Source: a virus
Lineage: Duplodnaviria > Heunggongvirae > Uroviricota > Caudoviricetes
DNA length: 64,000 bases
Strand: one strand, 5' to 3'
IMG/VR virus record: IMGVR_UViG_3300037789_000070
Coordinates: 202,576-266,575 of that record
Below, piece by piece: positions 37,108-41,452 of the stretch (the stretch's first letter is position 1; each line of letters starts with the position of its first letter). The notes under the pieces were generated by a model. That model saw nothing but the letters and a program-made list of their open reading frames with translations, was not told the DNA's origin and made no database searches. The position numbers were made by a program, and so were the translations under genes.

Positions 37108-38843
37108 TGGCTATCTTAATCGACATTTTACAAGAATCTAAAAAAGAATATAGAAAGATGCTCGCTCCTCTTGGGGGAATGAATAACTTCAGTTTTGTAA
37201 GGAACACTGTTAAAGAAATTCAGGAAAGTCTAAAACGAAGTGACAGAATTATTTGGTTCTTAAGATTCTTTAGACTAGAAGTAATTCCACTTTTGTCTGA
37301 TGAAATTTTATCTCAGCTTGGTGAGGAAGAATATAACCGCCTTTTAAATTGGAGAGAAAAAGAAAAGGCCAAACTGGAACAAAAAATTGGTGGTGAAGTA
37401 TCTGAACTGGAAGTACTACACAGACAGTTCATTCAGGAATTAGGACATTTTATATCTCTAGCAGACATGGTTCCTGAAATAAATTCTTATGTATTCAATA
37501 ATCAGACACCATCAGAAGTATACAATGACCTTCGTGAAATAGAAGAACGCTGGCAAGAAGAGCAAAAAGAAAAGAACAACATTCTCCAAAAGAAAGAAGA
37601 ACACAGTATTCTTATATCTTTTCCAGACGGATCTGCTTGGTTCAACTTAAATACGGCCTCTTGTTCAGATGAAGCAGAAGCAATGGGTCACTGTGGAAAC
37701 GAATATAATCCAAACTACGAAGATACCATTCTTTCTTTTAGAACGCCTAAAAATGGTGGCTGGGTTCCTCATCTTACTTTTATCCTAAGCGAACATGGTT
37801 ATCTTGGAGAAATGAAAGGTAGGGCCAATGAGAAGCCTTCCAAAAAATATCACCCCTACATTATAGCTCTATTGAAAAGCAAAGCTATTAATGGTATTAG
37901 AGGCGGTGGTTATGCTCCGGAAAATAATTTTTCAATCTTCGATTTGGAAGAAAATACTGTTAAACAATTATTAGATATGAAACCGCAATTAGCTACAATT
38001 CGAGAAGTAATCAAGAATTATGGCCTTTCTCCTTCTTTAATGAAAAGAGTAGAAGATGATTGTAACGACATTTTCAAATTTGATATAATTCATAAAAAAA
38101 TGGCAGAAGAAGGCAGACTTCATGGAGACGGAAGTACTTTATACCTTTATAACGAAAATTACGATCTTGAAGATTTTACTAGAGAAAATGAATATTCTAT
38201 ACCAGTCTTGTCAGATATCTTTTTTTATGCGTGTCAAAATACTAGAGTATTTTTAGAAGAATATTTAAGTCCGTTTATAGAAGATGGTCTGAGTTTTAGT
38301 AATTTTCTCTATGAAAATGCCACAGAAGAAGACAAATTCAGACTTAACAGAAAGTATAATCTTTTCAATGAAGAAGAATTGTCGGTAAAGGATATTAGTG
38401 ATTTAATAATCAAACTAAAGAAAACAAACGATGAAGAGTATAAAAAATTAGAAAAAGTATTCATCTTCTCACATATAAAAGAAACTGTCAAAAACATAAA
38501 AGATTATGTGATTAATTATTTAGAAACTGATGTTAGTGGTTTTAGGACATATGGTCTATATGGCGGAGATGAAGATTTCAGATCCCCGTTTATACATATA
38601 AGTATAACACCAAACGAGAACAATATTGAAGGGTCAGAAGTCCTCCTTTCTATCGGATTATCAGAATTAATCAGTCTGATAGAAAGTGGAACATTTGAAC
38701 AGTTTTATGAAGAGAGTAATTTTTGGAGCAGTGTGTTTGATAATACTGACATGGAAGACGTGGGCTTTGATAATATCATGGATGAATGTGTCGAAATGGA
38801 CAAAAATGCTTTCTGGGAAACGTTCCGCTCAAAATTCTATTGA
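37107..38843 (+). CDS. putative head-packaged protein with PcfJ-like domain (paralogue B)
   Basis: MAILIDILQE; EAEAMGHCGN...ILSFR...PHLTFI...GEMKGRANEKP; tandem duplicate of A. Confidence 0.75.
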   Translation: MAILIDILQESKKEYRKMLAPLGGMNNFSFVRNTVKEIQESLKRSDRIIWFLRFFRLEVIPLLSDEILSQLGEEEYNRLLNWREKEKAKLEQKIGGEVSELEVLHRQFIQELGHFISLADMVPEINSYVFNNQTPSEVYNDLREIEERWQEEQKEKNNILQKKEEHSILISFPDGSAWFNLNTASCSDEAEAMGHCGNEYNPNYEDTILSFRTPKNGGWVPHLTFILSEHGYLGEMKGRANEKPSKKYHPYIIALLKSKAINGIRGGGYAPENNFSIFDLEENTVKQLLDMKPQLATIREVIKNYGLSPSLMKRVEDDCNDIFKFDIIHKKMAEEGRLHGDGSTLYLYNENYDLEDFTRENEYSIPVLSDIFFYACQNTRVFLEEYLSPFIEDGLSFSNFLYENATEEDKFRLNRKYNLFNEEELSVKDISDLIIKLKKTNDEEYKKLEKVFIFSHIKETVKNIKDYVINYLETDVSGFRTYGLYGGDEDFRSPFIHISITPNENNIEGSEVLLSIGLSELISLIESGTFEQFYEESNFWSSVFDNTDMEDVGFDNIMDECVEMDKNAFWETFRSKFY

Positions 38844-38868
38844 CAATTACGGTGAACTGCCCTAACTT
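38840..38868 (+). promoter_or_regulatory. sigma70-like promoter for the tRNA-CUA / pth2 unit
   Basis: TTGACA-17 nt-TAACTT, 9 nt upstream of the tRNA. Confidence 0.7.
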
Positions 38869-38877
38869 AAAAATGAA

Positions 38878-38953
38878 GCGCTTATAGCTCAGCGGTTAGA
38901 GCGAAGAATTCTAAACTCTTTTGTCGTGGGTTCGAATCCCACTAAGCGCACCA
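38878..38953 (+). tRNA. amber suppressor tRNA (anticodon CTA), CCA encoded
   Basis: 76 nt: GCGCTTA/TAAGCGC acceptor, GCTC/GAGC D stem, AAGAA-TT-CTA-AA-CTCTT anticodon arm (CTA at 34-36 = 38911-38913), GTGGG-TTCGAAT-CCCAC T arm, A73. Confidence 0.88.
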
Positions 38954-38976
38954 TTTTTAACTGAGGTAAATACCTT

Positions 38977-39213
38977 ATGAAGAAGTTCCTATCATTCTTG
39001 AAAAAGTTCCATCTTTTTCATTCATGGGAAGTTCACAGGAATACAGGCATTTGGGAATATCTTGAATGTTCTGTATGCAAGCAGCGAAAGATCGTTAGGG
39101 TCAACGATGCTTGGCAACCACGAGATTTATCGTGGCTTTCAGGTGGCGAGTTCGATGATAATATCATGGTTACTCTTCCACATTTTAAAAACACGTCATG
39201 GATGAAAGGATAA
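38977..39213 (+). CDS. hypothetical protein (78 aa) with a CxxC pair
   Basis: GAGG SD; HSWE...YLECSVCKQRK. Confidence 0.7.
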   Translation: MKKFLSFLKKFHLFHSWEVHRNTGIWEYLECSVCKQRKIVRVNDAWQPRDLSWLSGGEFDDNIMVTLPHFKNTSWMKG

Positions 39214-39216
39214 AAT

Positions 39217-39621
39217 ATGACGTAGAACGAAAAAGTAGACACCAGAGAAAATAGGGACCCGAACCCCTATAGGCTTTATGCCATTGTTCGGAAAGATCTT
39301 GCCATGAATAAAGGCAAGATTGCAGCACAAGCTGGTCACGCGTATCTAGACGCATATCTTGAAGCACAAGATAAACGACCAGAAACAATTCCCCTTTATA
39401 AACAGAACCACGGCATCAAAATTTGTCTTGCCGCCTATTCACTCGAAGACCTTTTGGAAATCGAGAAACAGGCTAAAGACAATGGAATTCCGTGCGCTTT
39501 AATTACTGACCTCGGCTATACCCAATTTAATGGCCAGCCGACAGTCACTGCAATTGGTCTAGGCCCCTGTACTAGCGAAGAAGCGGGAACACTAGTCAAT
39601 AACCTCAAACTGTATAACTAA
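39217..39621 (+). CDS. pth2: peptidyl-tRNA hydrolase, Pth2 family, with in-frame TAG at codon 3 (39223-39225)
   Basis: AAAGGA SD then ATG ACG TAG AAC...; frame continues YAIVRKDLAMNKGKIAAQAGHA...TDLGYTQ...TAIGLGP; the ORF track catches only the part from M at 39304. Confidence 0.85.
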
Positions 39622-40014: not shown

Positions 40015-40017
40015 ATG

Positions 40018-40053
40018 AAAAAGCCGGATCACTTTCTTTGATCCGGCTTTTTT
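40018..40053. terminator. bidirectional intrinsic terminator
   Basis: AAAAAGCCGGATCA / TGATCCGGCTTTTT between convergent genes. Confidence 0.88.
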
Positions 40054-40054
40054 A

Positions 40055-40687
40055 TTATTCGAATATTTGTGAGGTAGGTTTCCAAGAAACAATATCATTC
40101 ACATCAACTGGATAGTTGGTGTCTGGTTCAACCCATCCATCACCAACCTTTTGTCTCAATGGATCATTAATTTCCCCCCAACGCATTTCCATCTCCTCTC
40201 CATTATTCAAAACAGCTTTGATAATAGCACCGTTATCTGGAGCGAATTTCATTGGAAAAGTTTCCATAGGTGGAAGATCGATGTAAAAGATAGGATTGAC
40301 TACTTCTTCAAATTCTGAACCGAATTTAAACCATGTATCTGGCCATGACGAAAGTACTGCTCCATACTCTCCAGTATCACACCCTCCACCTCCATATTCG
40401 ATGACGTTCCATCCATCCGTTGATAAAGAAGCATACTCGCAAGTGCCGCCATATATTGTTAAACAGTTCTCCCCAAGATAATAAGGGTCAGCATTATGAA
40501 TGCAGTAGGCTAGAATAGGCCTATCTTTGGGAGCAGTTTCCATATCCTTGGGCTTAATAGCATCGTGATATTTCTTTAGTTTTTGTCGTGTTTCGTCAAC
40601 TAACGTTGGATCAAAATTATCTATTGCTAAAATGTCGTTCAATAAATCAATGGTCTCTTCAACAACACTCACATCAAAAATATTCAT
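40055..40687 (-). CDS. hypothetical protein with METAPKD (DUF551-like) motif
   Basis: KDMETAPKDRPIL and a second MKFAPDNG-like repeat. Confidence 0.65.
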   Translation of the reverse strand: MNIFDVSVVEETIDLLNDILAIDNFDPTLVDETRQKLKKYHDAIKPKDMETAPKDRPILAYCIHNADPYYLGENCLTIYGGTCEYASLSTDGWNVIEYGGGGCDTGEYGAVLSSWPDTWFKFGSEFEEVVNPIFYIDLPPMETFPMKFAPDNGAIIKAVLNNGEEMEMRWGEINDPLRQKVGDGWVEPDTNYPVDVNDIVSWKPTSQIFE

Positions 40688-41403
40688 CGGTCATTCCTAA
40701 CTTCAATTAATCTGTCCAAACCAATAGCAATCTCAAAAACCTTCGCATCCGGAAAATCAGTTCTCAATGAAACTGAACACATTTCCGTCCAACGATCTTG
40801 GGCAATTCTATAGACCTCTACGTCCATAGTCTTTTCTGAATAACTTGGAAGTCTATCAGATTCAACAACGCGGGTCTCATGGCCGGTAAACAGTCCAATC
40901 TCCCGCTCTAGCAATGGAAGCATTCGCTGGTAGTAATCCATTTTGGTATCTAGACTATAGATGCACTGAAATTCCATCTGATAAAACTCGTTAAAACGTA
41001 GTTTAGATGGAGAAGCGCCATCTGCGGTTTCTCTGCGGAACGACTTACCAACTTGCCAAACACACAATGGAAGCCTAACCTTTTTATGAGAACTCAGAAG
41101 GTGATTAGCAAATGCATAACTAGACGGCGTTGTTTCCGGTCGTAAAGCTGCGTTATTTTCTCCCACAGGAGCATTAAGTAGCCAGATGTCCTCACCAGTA
41201 TATTGCGGATTAAGCCTATCAGTGACCGTAATAATCGGTCCCTCGACCCTTTCTGTTCGCCATGCCCCATTAATGTTCTTCAATTCTGTTAGAATCGAAT
41301 TACTGATTACGCTTACCGCGCTGTCCCGTTCTAAAATCTCACGTTCAGTCCAAAACCGAAGGCCGCCCGTTTCATAAAGGTCCAAACTCATATCTTTATC
41401 CAT
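40684..41403 (-). CDS. minimal class II aminoacyl-tRNA synthetase, GlyRS-1-like catalytic core without anticodon-binding domain
   Basis: LRPET, QVGKSFRRE (motif 2), EFYQME, LPSYSEKTMD, RTDF, EIAIGLDRL (motif 3); protein ends 7 aa after motif 3. Confidence 0.85.
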   Translation of the reverse strand: MDKDMSLDLYETGGLRFWTEREILERDSAVSVISNSILTELKNINGAWRTERVEGPIITVTDRLNPQYTGEDIWLLNAPVGENNAALRPETTPSSYAFANHLLSSHKKVRLPLCVWQVGKSFRRETADGASPSKLRFNEFYQMEFQCIYSLDTKMDYYQRMLPLLEREIGLFTGHETRVVESDRLPSYSEKTMDVEVYRIAQDRWTEMCSVSLRTDFPDAKVFEIAIGLDRLIEVRNDR

Positions 41404-41423
41404 TGTGGTTTAGTGACTTTTTG

Positions 41424-41452
41424 ATAATAGACTAAGAAGTCTTTTGAAACAA
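41424..41452 (-). promoter_or_regulatory. sigma70-like promoter for the GlyRS-like gene
   Basis: TTGTTT-17 nt-TATTAT on the minus strand. Confidence 0.5.

What the first reader, a model, noticed from the sequence alone, without database searches (positions are those of the whole stretch)
38840..41452. Candidate self-contained amber-suppression switch: tRNA-CUA, amber-gated Pth2 and an anticodon-blind mini-synthetase
Seen: within 2.6 kb lie a UAG-reading tRNA, a co-transcribed pth2 with TAG at codon 3, and a convergently transcribed GlyRS-like catalytic core. The rest of the window is intact in code 11. Known: recoded phages carry suppressor tRNAs for broad TAG reassignment; engineered orthogonal amber pairs rely on synthetases tolerant of the anticodon. 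Inference: this may be a natural orthogonal aaRS/tRNA-CUA pair used as a targeted regulatory switch rather than genome-wide recoding, with Pth2 as its output. I do not recall such a module being described, but cannot check.
Basis: partly seen in the sequence, partly recalled or inferred. Interest (0 to 1): 0.92.

Follow-up and report, generated by a model that had tools for sequence, protein, structure and literature searches.

The report
Suppressor-tRNA-gated phage Pth2 gene; synthetase not required
A 328-kb phage that uses the normal genetic code carries a UAG-reading tRNA beside a peptidyl-tRNA hydrolase gene that starts ATG-ACG-TAG; many giant phages share this pairing, so it looks like a natural single-gene stop-codon switch, but the nearby mini glycyl-tRNA-synthetase is not a required part of it.

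Summary
They are a tRNA-CUA (38878-38953), a pth2 gene starting ATG-ACG-TAG (39217-39621), and a 239-aa GlyRS-like catalytic core on the opposite strand (40684-41403). The genome is a 328-kb phage that uses code 11.

The tRNA-pth2 pairing is strongly supported:
- 37 stop-interrupted pth2 genes from huge phages form one clade, separate from ordinary phage pth2.
- Every one has a stop at about codon 2-8, and a matching suppressor tRNA usually lies close by.
- The stop and the anticodon change together: TAG with CUA, TGA with UCA, TAA with UUA. This holds in the cultured pair Sinorhizobium phage Phosso and Agrobacterium phage Atu_ph07.

The orthogonal-synthetase idea is not supported as a general rule. 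At least seven complete genomes have the module but no mini-synthetase. The synthetase family is large and mostly sits in ordinary tRNA arrays.

A better third component is the small helical protein just downstream of pth2. It is present in 29 of 39 interrupted loci and in 0 of 39 ordinary ones.

This scan has already found the tRNA-gated Pth2 on other DNA many times. I found no published description. Nothing is experimental, and the inserted amino acid and the purpose of the gating are unknown.

The parts
38878..38953 (+). Amber-suppressor tRNA, anticodon CUA. Acceptor end G1-C72, C2-G71, G3-C70, A73, with CCA encoded.
   Evidence: ARAGORN. Rfam RF00005 at 69.1 bits. One of 36 tRNAs in the genome, and 115 kb away from the main tRNA island.
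38977..39213 (+). 78-aa ORF between the tRNA and pth2, function unknown. Its TAA stop lies 3 nt before the pth2 ATG.
   Evidence: ORF list. No Pfam or PHROG family. No homologue in 80 related pth2 loci.
39205..39225 (+). Gate: Shine-Dalgarno AAAGGA, then ATG (39217), ACG, TAG (39223-39225), followed by A.
   Evidence: Sequence. In 38 distinct relatives the leader from ATG to the stop is 1-7 codons in 30 of 32. The base after the stop is a purine in 34 of 38. The codon before the stop is Thr in 13 or Leu in 10 of 38.
39217..39621 (+). pth2, Pth2-type peptidyl-tRNA hydrolase, 134 codons with UAG at codon 3.
   Evidence: Pfam PTH2 E 1.3e-28 over the full profile. Member of the all-interrupted clade, support 99/81. 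The family's invariant K, D and T columns are kept.
39634..40014 (+). 126-aa helical-hairpin protein of a family that follows interrupted pth2 genes. Motif: F-x-T-K/R-D/E-E-Y-L...W-K/R..Y.
   Evidence: BLASTP E 3e-7 to the L024 84-aa protein. Profile hits in 29/39 interrupted and 0/39 ordinary loci. AF2 pLDDT 84, two long antiparallel helices.
40014..40056 (.). Bidirectional intrinsic terminator between the two convergent units.
   Evidence: Hairpin of -25.1 kcal/mol, z -7.9, flanked by an A run and a T run.
40055..40687 (-). 210-aa ORF whose start overlaps the synthetase stop (ATGA). Function unknown.
   Evidence: ORF list. No Pfam or PHROG family. No homologue beside the synthetase in 80 loci.
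40684..41403 (-). Stand-alone GlyRS-like class IIa catalytic core, 239 aa, with no anticodon-binding domain. It is a neighbour of the module, not a demonstrated part of it.
   Evidence: Pfam tRNA-synt_2b. Family of more than 1100 proteins of about 235 aa with invariant motif-2 and motif-3 residues. Closest solved relative GlyRS 8t5n by sequence and fold.

Best explanation
**Proposed mechanism.** The window holds one copy of a module found widely in huge phages. The module is a suppressor tRNA, a special Pth2 paralogue whose ORF is interrupted by a matching stop codon a few codons after the start, and usually a small helical-hairpin protein just downstream.

Here the tRNA-CUA, a 78-aa ORF, pth2 (ATG-ACG-UAG...) and the 126-aa protein form one transcription unit. 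Ribosomes that start at the ATG behind the AAAGGA site reach UAG at codon 3. Either RF1 ends synthesis after a dipeptide, or the phage tRNA-CUA inserts an amino acid and the 134-residue enzyme is made. Output of this Pth2 therefore follows the activity of the suppressor tRNA.

**What is shown:** the anatomy, the conservation, and the covariation of stop codon with anticodon.

**What is inferred:**
- The tRNA is charged by a host synthetase. Lys or Gln are the usual fates of CUA tRNAs in bacteria, by general knowledge.
- The enzyme is an active hydrolase.
- The purpose is to tie extra peptidyl-tRNA recycling, or a more specialised Pth2 activity, to the periods when stop-codon read-through is active. 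I hold this point with low confidence, about 0.3.

The GlyRS-like core is a separate phage gene. It is probably glycine-activating, and it merely lies nearby in this lineage.
For: - Anatomy.
- There is no ATG, GTG or TTG between the TAG and the first Pth2 strand.
- Eight distant loci (Pth2 about 35% identical) keep M-L/I-T-N-S-F-L-TAG-E-A... with coding sequence conserved on both sides of the TAG.
- Of 80 pth2 loci, about 40 are interrupted. A tRNA-CUA lies within 8 kb in 26 of the loci, and 25 of those 26 have TAG as the interrupting stop.
- All 37 interrupted genes form one clade (99/81). Ordinary pth2 forms another (100/96).
- Covariation: L087 has TAG with CUA and is sister to L086 and L088, which have TGA with UCA. 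L103 has two TAA codons with a UUA tRNA 115 nt upstream.
- Cultured pair: Phosso has ATG-AAG-TAT-TAG with a tRNA-CUA 4.4 kb upstream. Atu_ph07 has M-I-G-E-H-F-TGA, and its only suppressor is a tRNA-UCA.
- The flanks of these loci are not recoded, and neither is this genome.
- The genome also has an ordinary pth2 at 95.9 kb, so the gated copy is an additional paralogue.
- The published XacN1 and Atu_ph07 genome papers report suppressor tRNAs and did not identify a specific target gene (PMC5852040, PMC6102473).
Against: - Nothing is experimental. Expression, processing and charging of the tRNA, and the inserted residue, are all unknown.
- TAG ends 67 of 419 ORFs in this genome, with no excess of nearby back-up stops. 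A strong suppressor should therefore be costly.
- The tRNA has an A31-C39 mismatch.
- A few relatives have a GTG or TTG right after the stop, or an ATG two codons before the domain: L085, L086, L088, L092, L096, L099. Start-after-stop cannot be excluded for them.
- Here an in-frame ATT at 39277 could in principle initiate.
- Sequence gives no support for any particular purpose of the gating.
Confidence: 0.75

Rival explanations
1. The anticodon-blind mini-GlyRS is the dedicated enzyme that charges the tRNA-CUA, presumably with glycine, making a natural orthogonal pair with Pth2 as its output.
For: - The three genes lie within 2.6 kb here, and within about 3-6 kb in the clade L021-L050, where the tRNA-CUA sits 60-1900 nt upstream of the synthetase on the same strand.
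- The two synthetases belong to different well-supported clades of their family. The juxtaposition is therefore seen at two distant points of the tree.
- The core keeps the class II motifs and the GlyRS-type RPET, FRRE and EF.Q.E segments.
- The window tRNA has G1-C72, C2-G71, G3-C70 and A73. This is the acceptor pattern usually paired with alpha2 GlyRS (abstract of PMC3990555).
Against: - Seven records with CheckV completeness of 98-100% carry the gated pth2 but no mini-synthetase: L088, L091, L099, L130, L132, L138 and Atu_ph07.
- Where both exist they can be 18 kb, 20 kb or about 190 kb apart.
- Most family members sit in ordinary tRNA arrays beside Gly, Glu, Ala, Arg or Cys tRNAs, with no suppressor.
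- The tRNA-CUAs next to the synthetase differ at pairs 2:71 and 3:70 and have G73, not A73.
- Here the synthetase is in the convergent transcription unit.
Confidence: 0.12
2. The UAG is a true stop. ATG-ACG-TAG is a two-codon upstream mini-ORF, and Pth2 is made by re-initiation or a non-canonical start downstream. Alternatively a truncated protein starts at Met 39304. In this reading the tRNA-CUA serves another purpose.
For: - Short ORFs of 2-8 codons are known to have strong effects on translation and on peptidyl-tRNA drop-off (PMC2490762).
- Some relatives have a GTG or TTG just after the stop.
Against: - Re-initiation would not require the stop type to follow the anticodon of the neighbouring tRNA, yet it does, in at least three independent switches.
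- Several genes have two in-frame stops.
- Starting at 39304 would remove the first 12 positions of the Pfam domain.
Confidence: 0.07
3. The phage is, or recently was, TAG-recoded genome-wide (code 15), and pth2 is just one of many recoded genes.
For: Suppressor tRNAs are typical of recoded phages (Borges et al., bioRxiv 10.1101/2021.08.26.457843).
Against: - Coding density is the same under code 11 and with TAG as sense, and 67 ORFs end in TAG.
- No other gene shows a short leader, a TAG, then start-less coding sequence.
- The flanks of 37 related loci show no gain under any alternative code.
Confidence: 0.03

Closest known systems
Stop-codon recoding in phages with phage-encoded suppressor tRNAs, including the Jade-phage 'code change module' of suppressor tRNA, TrpRS and RF1 (Borges et al., bioRxiv 10.1101/2021.08.26.457843)
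   Same: A phage-encoded suppressor tRNA allows translation through in-frame stops. The authors propose that expression of the stop-containing genes is thereby timed or gated. A synthetase gene can sit beside the tRNA.
   Different: In those phages many late genes carry many recoded stops. Here the genome uses code 11 and one gene family carries one or two stops at a fixed early position. The paper's text does not contain the word 'hydrolase'. The synthetase here is a bare GlyRS-like core, not a full-length enzyme, and it is dispensable for the module.
prfB (RF2) autoregulation through an in-frame UGA
   Same: An in-frame stop early in a translation-termination-related gene makes its output depend on the balance between termination and an alternative decoding event.
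   Different: prfB uses a +1 frameshift and senses its own product. Here the event is in-frame read-through by a dedicated tRNA, and the product is a hydrolase, not the factor that reads the stop.
Lambda bar-type minigenes and hungry codons near the start (PMC2490762)
   Same: An ATG, one to seven codons, then a stop is the size of ORF that gives peptidyl-tRNA drop-off, which Pth counteracts. The gated gene encodes a peptidyl-tRNA hydrolase.
   Different: Minigenes are stand-alone ORFs. Here the mini-ORF is fused in frame to the hydrolase and paired with a suppressor tRNA. No drop-off has been shown for it.
Engineered orthogonal amber pairs such as PylRS/tRNA-Pyl
   Same: A CUA tRNA decodes a chosen UAG in a host that otherwise uses UAG as a stop.
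   Different: There is no evidence here for a dedicated synthetase. ARAGORN's 'tRNA-Pyl' label only reflects the anticodon.

Membership tests
tRNA (Rfam RF00005), amber suppressor | Cloverleaf scoring above the family cut-off, with anticodon CUA at positions 34-36 | tested here: met
   69.1 bits against a cut-off of 29. ARAGORN gives anticodon cta at position 34.
PTH2 peptidyl-tRNA hydrolase (PF01981) | Full-length domain match above the gathering score | tested here: met
   99.9 bits against 23, profile positions 1-115 of 115.
PTH2 peptidyl-tRNA hydrolase (PF01981) | Hydrolysis of peptidyl-tRNA | not testable with these tools
   Invariant K31, D95 and T99 columns are kept in gated and ordinary members. 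That these are the catalytic residues is from my memory of Pth2 biochemistry.
Suppressor-gated Pth2 clade of huge phages (as defined in this scan) | In-frame stop within about 8 codons of the ATG, with no canonical start between the stop and the first strand | tested here: met
   TAG at codon 3, followed by 16 start-less codons.
Suppressor-gated Pth2 clade of huge phages (as defined in this scan) | Suppressor tRNA with the matching anticodon nearby, and placement inside the clade | tested here: met
   tRNA-CUA lies 264 nt upstream of the ATG. The gene falls in the clade with 99/81 support.
Alpha2-type glycyl-tRNA synthetase | Class II motifs 1-3 with GlyRS-type active-site segments | tested here: met
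   Invariant P56, R88-E90-T91-T92, R123-E125, E144, and G228-D230-R231. Aligned to GlyRS 8t5n at E 3e-13.
Alpha2-type glycyl-tRNA synthetase | C-terminal anticodon-binding domain and insertion domains | tested here: not met
   The protein is 239 aa and ends 8 residues after motif 3. It covers only the core of the 398-476-residue GlyRS chains matched. It is therefore not a canonical GlyRS.
Alpha2-type glycyl-tRNA synthetase | Glycylation of a tRNA | not testable with these tools
Genome-wide TAG recoding (code 15) | Higher coding density and fewer split genes when TAG is read as sense | tested here: not met
   0.9316 against 0.9318, and 67 ORFs end in TAG.
Code-change module (suppressor tRNA + synthetase + release factor next to recoded genes) | The three genes adjacent to each other and upstream of recoded late genes | tested here: not met
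   The only RF-like gene is a truncated RF1-like gene 136 kb away. There are no recoded late genes.

The most novel reading that the evidence does not exclude
In this lineage, and independently in the L021-L050 clade, the bare GlyRS-like core is the charging enzyme of the tRNA-CUA. That would make a natural, anticodon-independent orthogonal pair placing glycine at UAG, on top of the general suppressor-gated Pth2 switch.
Probability: 0.12. Interest if true: 0.9.

Novelty: new variant of a known kind. Interest (0 to 1): 0.75.

Why it matters
Many cultured and uncultured jumbo phages that use the standard code carry suppressor tRNAs. The XacN1 genome paper says no target could be found, and the Atu_ph07 paper names none. 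A conserved, dedicated target gives these tRNAs a concrete job.

It would also be a natural single-gene stop-codon switch in which the mRNA codon and the tRNA anticodon co-evolve. The product is a peptidyl-tRNA hydrolase, and the same genome carries a UGA-gated mini-RF1. Together these point to a phage toolkit that senses or tunes translation termination in the infected cell.

Two cultured phages, Phosso on Sinorhizobium meliloti and Atu_ph07 on Agrobacterium tumefaciens C58, make this directly testable.

The negative result on the mini-synthetase matters too. That large family of GlyRS-like cores still has no known substrate, and it should not be assumed to be a suppressor-charging enzyme.

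Tried and rejected
- Single-protein searches of viral contigs with the synthetase and with Pth2 found nothing. Alignments were needed.
- Typing the suppressor tRNAs by nearest neighbour among 537 phage tRNAs gave mixed answers (Arg, Lys, Thr, Gly, Met). It gave no amino-acid identity.
- No other early-TAG gene turned up in the genome. The candidates look like in-frame intergenic sequence.
- TAG-ending genes have no excess of nearby back-up stops, Mann-Whitney p 0.33.
- The cultured phages phiM12, Gurke, Munch and Myrna, and the gp680 copy in Atu_ph07, have ordinary uninterrupted pth2.
- A complex prediction for Pth2 with the 126-aa protein returned no verdict.
- A fold search with the 126-aa model gave only generic helical hairpins, all E > 0.3. 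Low-rmsd overlaps with the SerRS tRNA-binding arm are a geometric lead only. No Pfam family matched.
- A short pattern scan of Atu_ph07 was uninformative.
- Literature searches found no description of a suppressor-gated Pth2 or of the phage mini-GlyRS.

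
Full report
**What is in the window.**
The window is bases 202,576-266,575 of a 327,992-bp IMG/VR phage record that is about 98% complete. GC content is 38%. The record has 36 tRNA genes, 34 of them in an island at 80-127 kb.

The genome uses the standard code. Greedy ORF coverage is 0.932 under code 11 and also 0.932 with TAG read as sense. It is lower with TGA or TAA as sense. 67 of 419 ORFs end in TAG.

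At 38878-38953 (+) lies a well-formed tRNA with anticodon CUA. ARAGORN calls it, and Rfam scores it 69.1 bits with one A31-C39 mismatch and an encoded CCA.

Downstream on the same strand come, in order:
- a 78-aa ORF;
- a Shine-Dalgarno AAAGGA, then ATG (39217), ACG, TAG (39223-39225), and an open frame to 39621;
- a 126-aa ORF (39634-40014);
- a hairpin of -25.1 kcal/mol flanked by A and T runs (40014-56), which also ends the convergent unit.

Pfam PTH2 covers the post-TAG translation over its whole length (E 1.3e-28). The match begins 12 codons before the first canonical start after the TAG. No ATG, GTG or TTG lies between the TAG and that point.

The convergent unit holds a 239-aa class II synthetase core (40684-41403) and a 210-aa ORF whose start overlaps the synthetase stop.

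**The tRNA-pth2 pairing in relatives.**
A profile of the synthetase family retrieved 80 viral loci. Eight of them (L021, L022, L023, L024, L027, L031, L034, L050) come from contigs of up to 465 kb. Each has a lone tRNA-CUA just upstream of the synthetase and a pth2 about 2 kb downstream. That pth2 reads M-L/I-T-N-S-F-L-TAG-E-A-A..., with the peptide conserved on both sides of the TAG.

A Pth2 profile then retrieved 80 pth2 loci. They fall into two classes:
- Ordinary genes have an ATG 2-8 codons before the first strand and no suppressor tRNA nearby.
- Interrupted genes have an ATG, 1-7 codons, a stop, then 2-42 start-less codons before the domain.

A tRNA-CUA lies within 8 kb in 26 loci. In 25 of these the interrupting stop is TAG.

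In a maximum-likelihood tree all 37 interrupted genes form one clade (99/81). Ordinary phage pth2 forms a separate one (100/96).

Inside the interrupted clade the stop type changes together with the tRNA:
- L087 (TAG with CUA) is sister to L086 and L088 (TGA with UCA).
- L103 has two TAA codons, each preceded by TTC ACG, and a tRNA-UUA 115 nt upstream.
- All these tRNAs pass the Rfam cut-off.

The flanks of these loci show no sign of recoding.

The sequence context of the stop is also non-random. A purine follows it in 34 of 38 distinct genes. Thr or Leu codons precede it in 23 of 38.

**Cultured examples.**
*Sinorhizobium phage Phosso (PV764938.1).* The gene has AGGAG, then ATG-AAG-TAT-TAG, then the Pth2 frame. 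The record annotates only the part from an internal Met. A tRNA-CUA lies 4.4 kb upstream on the same strand, and a second one sits at 446.7 kb.

*Agrobacterium phage Atu_ph07 (MF403008.1).* This is a relative of Phosso. It has M-I-G-E-H-F-TGA at the same place, and that copy is annotated as a hypothetical protein. Its only suppressor among all 31 tRNA matches is a tRNA-UCA.

The Atu_ph07 paper reports the opal suppressor without naming a specific target gene. The XacN1 paper states that no target of its two tRNA-CUA could be found.

I found no paper describing a suppressor-gated Pth2. Borges et al. do not use the word 'hydrolase'. Iyer et al. discuss jumbo-phage PTH2 without mentioning stops.

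This scan has reported the same pairing on other DNA many times. My results agree with those notes and add the covariation tree, the Phosso/Atu_ph07 pair and the third gene.

**The mini-synthetase.**
It is a real and probably active enzyme. The family has more than 1100 members of about 235 aa, with invariant motif-2 and motif-3 residues. The closest solved relatives by sequence and by fold are alpha2 GlyRS, for example 8t5n. It has no anticodon-binding domain.

It is not an obligate partner of the module:
- Only 5 of 50 pth2-bearing records encode it.
- Seven records with CheckV completeness of 98-100% carry a gated pth2 but lack it.
- In genomes that have both, the genes can be 18 kb, 20 kb or about 190 kb apart.
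- In most loci it is embedded in ordinary tRNA arrays, next to Gly, Glu, Ala, Arg, Cys, Tyr or Ser tRNAs.
- The tRNA-CUAs beside it vary at pairs 2:71 and 3:70 and in the discriminator base.

In the synthetase tree the window copy and the eight-locus clade lie in different well-supported clades. The juxtaposition therefore arose twice, or was lost many times. That is at most a weak hint of association within general clustering of translation genes. The eight-locus clade also has a CysRS-like ORF ('HIGN' motif seen by eye; no family search was run) and a P-loop ORF, possibly a kinase, nearby.

The window tRNA does have the G1-C72, C2-G71, G3-C70, A73 acceptor end, which an alpha2-type GlyRS would favour. 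I therefore keep the orthogonal-pair idea at about 0.12 for this lineage.

**A better third component.**
The 126-aa protein downstream of pth2 belongs to a small family. The family has a motif F-T-T-R/K-E/D-E-Y-L-x-Y/W-R-x-x-W-K/R-x-x-Y and a C-terminal helix, and many members end in Ala-Ala.

A profile finds it within 3 kb downstream in 29 of 39 interrupted loci and in none of 39 ordinary loci. Fisher's test gives p = 6e-13, not corrected for relatedness, and 21 of the hits helped build the profile.

The model is a long antiparallel helical hairpin. It has no informative structural or Pfam match.

**Mechanism and its limits.**
Shown by sequence: this Pth2 can be full-length only if the stop is decoded, and evolution keeps the stop matched to a neighbouring tRNA.

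Inferred: the tRNA competes with RF1 at codon 3, so the enzyme is made in proportion to suppressor activity.

The genome also carries an ordinary pth2 and a third divergent PTH2-like gene in the tRNA island. The gated copy is therefore a specialised extra.

Possible purposes:
- matching peptidyl-tRNA recycling to the extra stalling that read-through causes;
- feedback on the suppressor itself;
- timing of expression.

Two observations fit a ribosome-rescue setting but do not decide among these. First, L086 and L088 have a tmRNA gene 2-3 kb from their gated pth2. Second, the leaders are the same size as minigenes (PMC2490762).

Against a strong suppressor: TAG ends 16% of this phage's genes, and they have no special back-up stops.

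**Verdict.**
The tRNA-gated Pth2 reading is well supported by comparative evidence. The synthetase reading is not supported as a rule.

Noticed in passing
own genome G000:C1:104968-105621 (+), outside the window (locus L190:269-919): A truncated RF1-like release-factor gene of 217 codons. It has the C-terminal part of PCRF, the RF-1 domain, a PPT motif and GGQ, with one in-frame TGA at codon 34 where RF1 has Trp. All 71 distinct IMG/VR relatives carry exactly one TGA at that spot, mostly GGC TGA A/G. The genome has no tRNA-UCA. The scan has seen this family in other genomes.
   Followed up: partly
window 39634-40014 and loci L085-L154, just downstream of pth2: A small helical-hairpin protein family specific to the gated-pth2 module (29/39 loci against 0/39). 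17 of the 21 aligned members end in Ala, and about 13 of them in Ala-Ala, which resembles an ssrA-like ClpX degron. That resemblance is from memory and was not tested.
   Followed up: partly
own genome G000:C1:95919-96272 and about 106950-107460: Two further PTH2-family genes lie in the tRNA island. One is an ordinary uninterrupted pth2. The other is a longer, divergent PTH2-like protein.
   Followed up: partly
L086:5688-6175 and L088:4720-5202: Phage-encoded permuted alpha-type tmRNA genes lie 2-3 kb upstream of TGA-gated pth2 genes.
   Followed up: no
window 40684-40687: The synthetase stop and the start of the 210-aa ORF overlap (ATGA), which suggests translational coupling. The 210-aa protein has no family and is not found beside the synthetase elsewhere.
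   Followed up: partly
window 41524-42741 and Brevundimonas phage Kabachok ON529852.1 (L004): An AAA+ ATPase (phrog_7485) lies about 120 nt from the mini-synthetase in the window and about 1.5 kb from it in Kabachok. This possible recurrent neighbourhood was not examined.
   Followed up: no
Pectobacterium phage CBB KU574722.1 289995-290067 (L003): The CBB tRNA annotated 'tRNA-Pyl' (CUA) is 83% identical to the window tRNA-CUA. No pth2 hit was seen in CBB at the thresholds used.
   Followed up: no
L021-L050, about 3 kb upstream and 2-4 kb downstream of the synthetase: A translation-gene cluster: a CysRS-like 449-aa ORF upstream, and a 422-aa P-loop protein (possibly a polynucleotide kinase) downstream of the gated pth2. 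Both assignments are by eye only.
   Followed up: no
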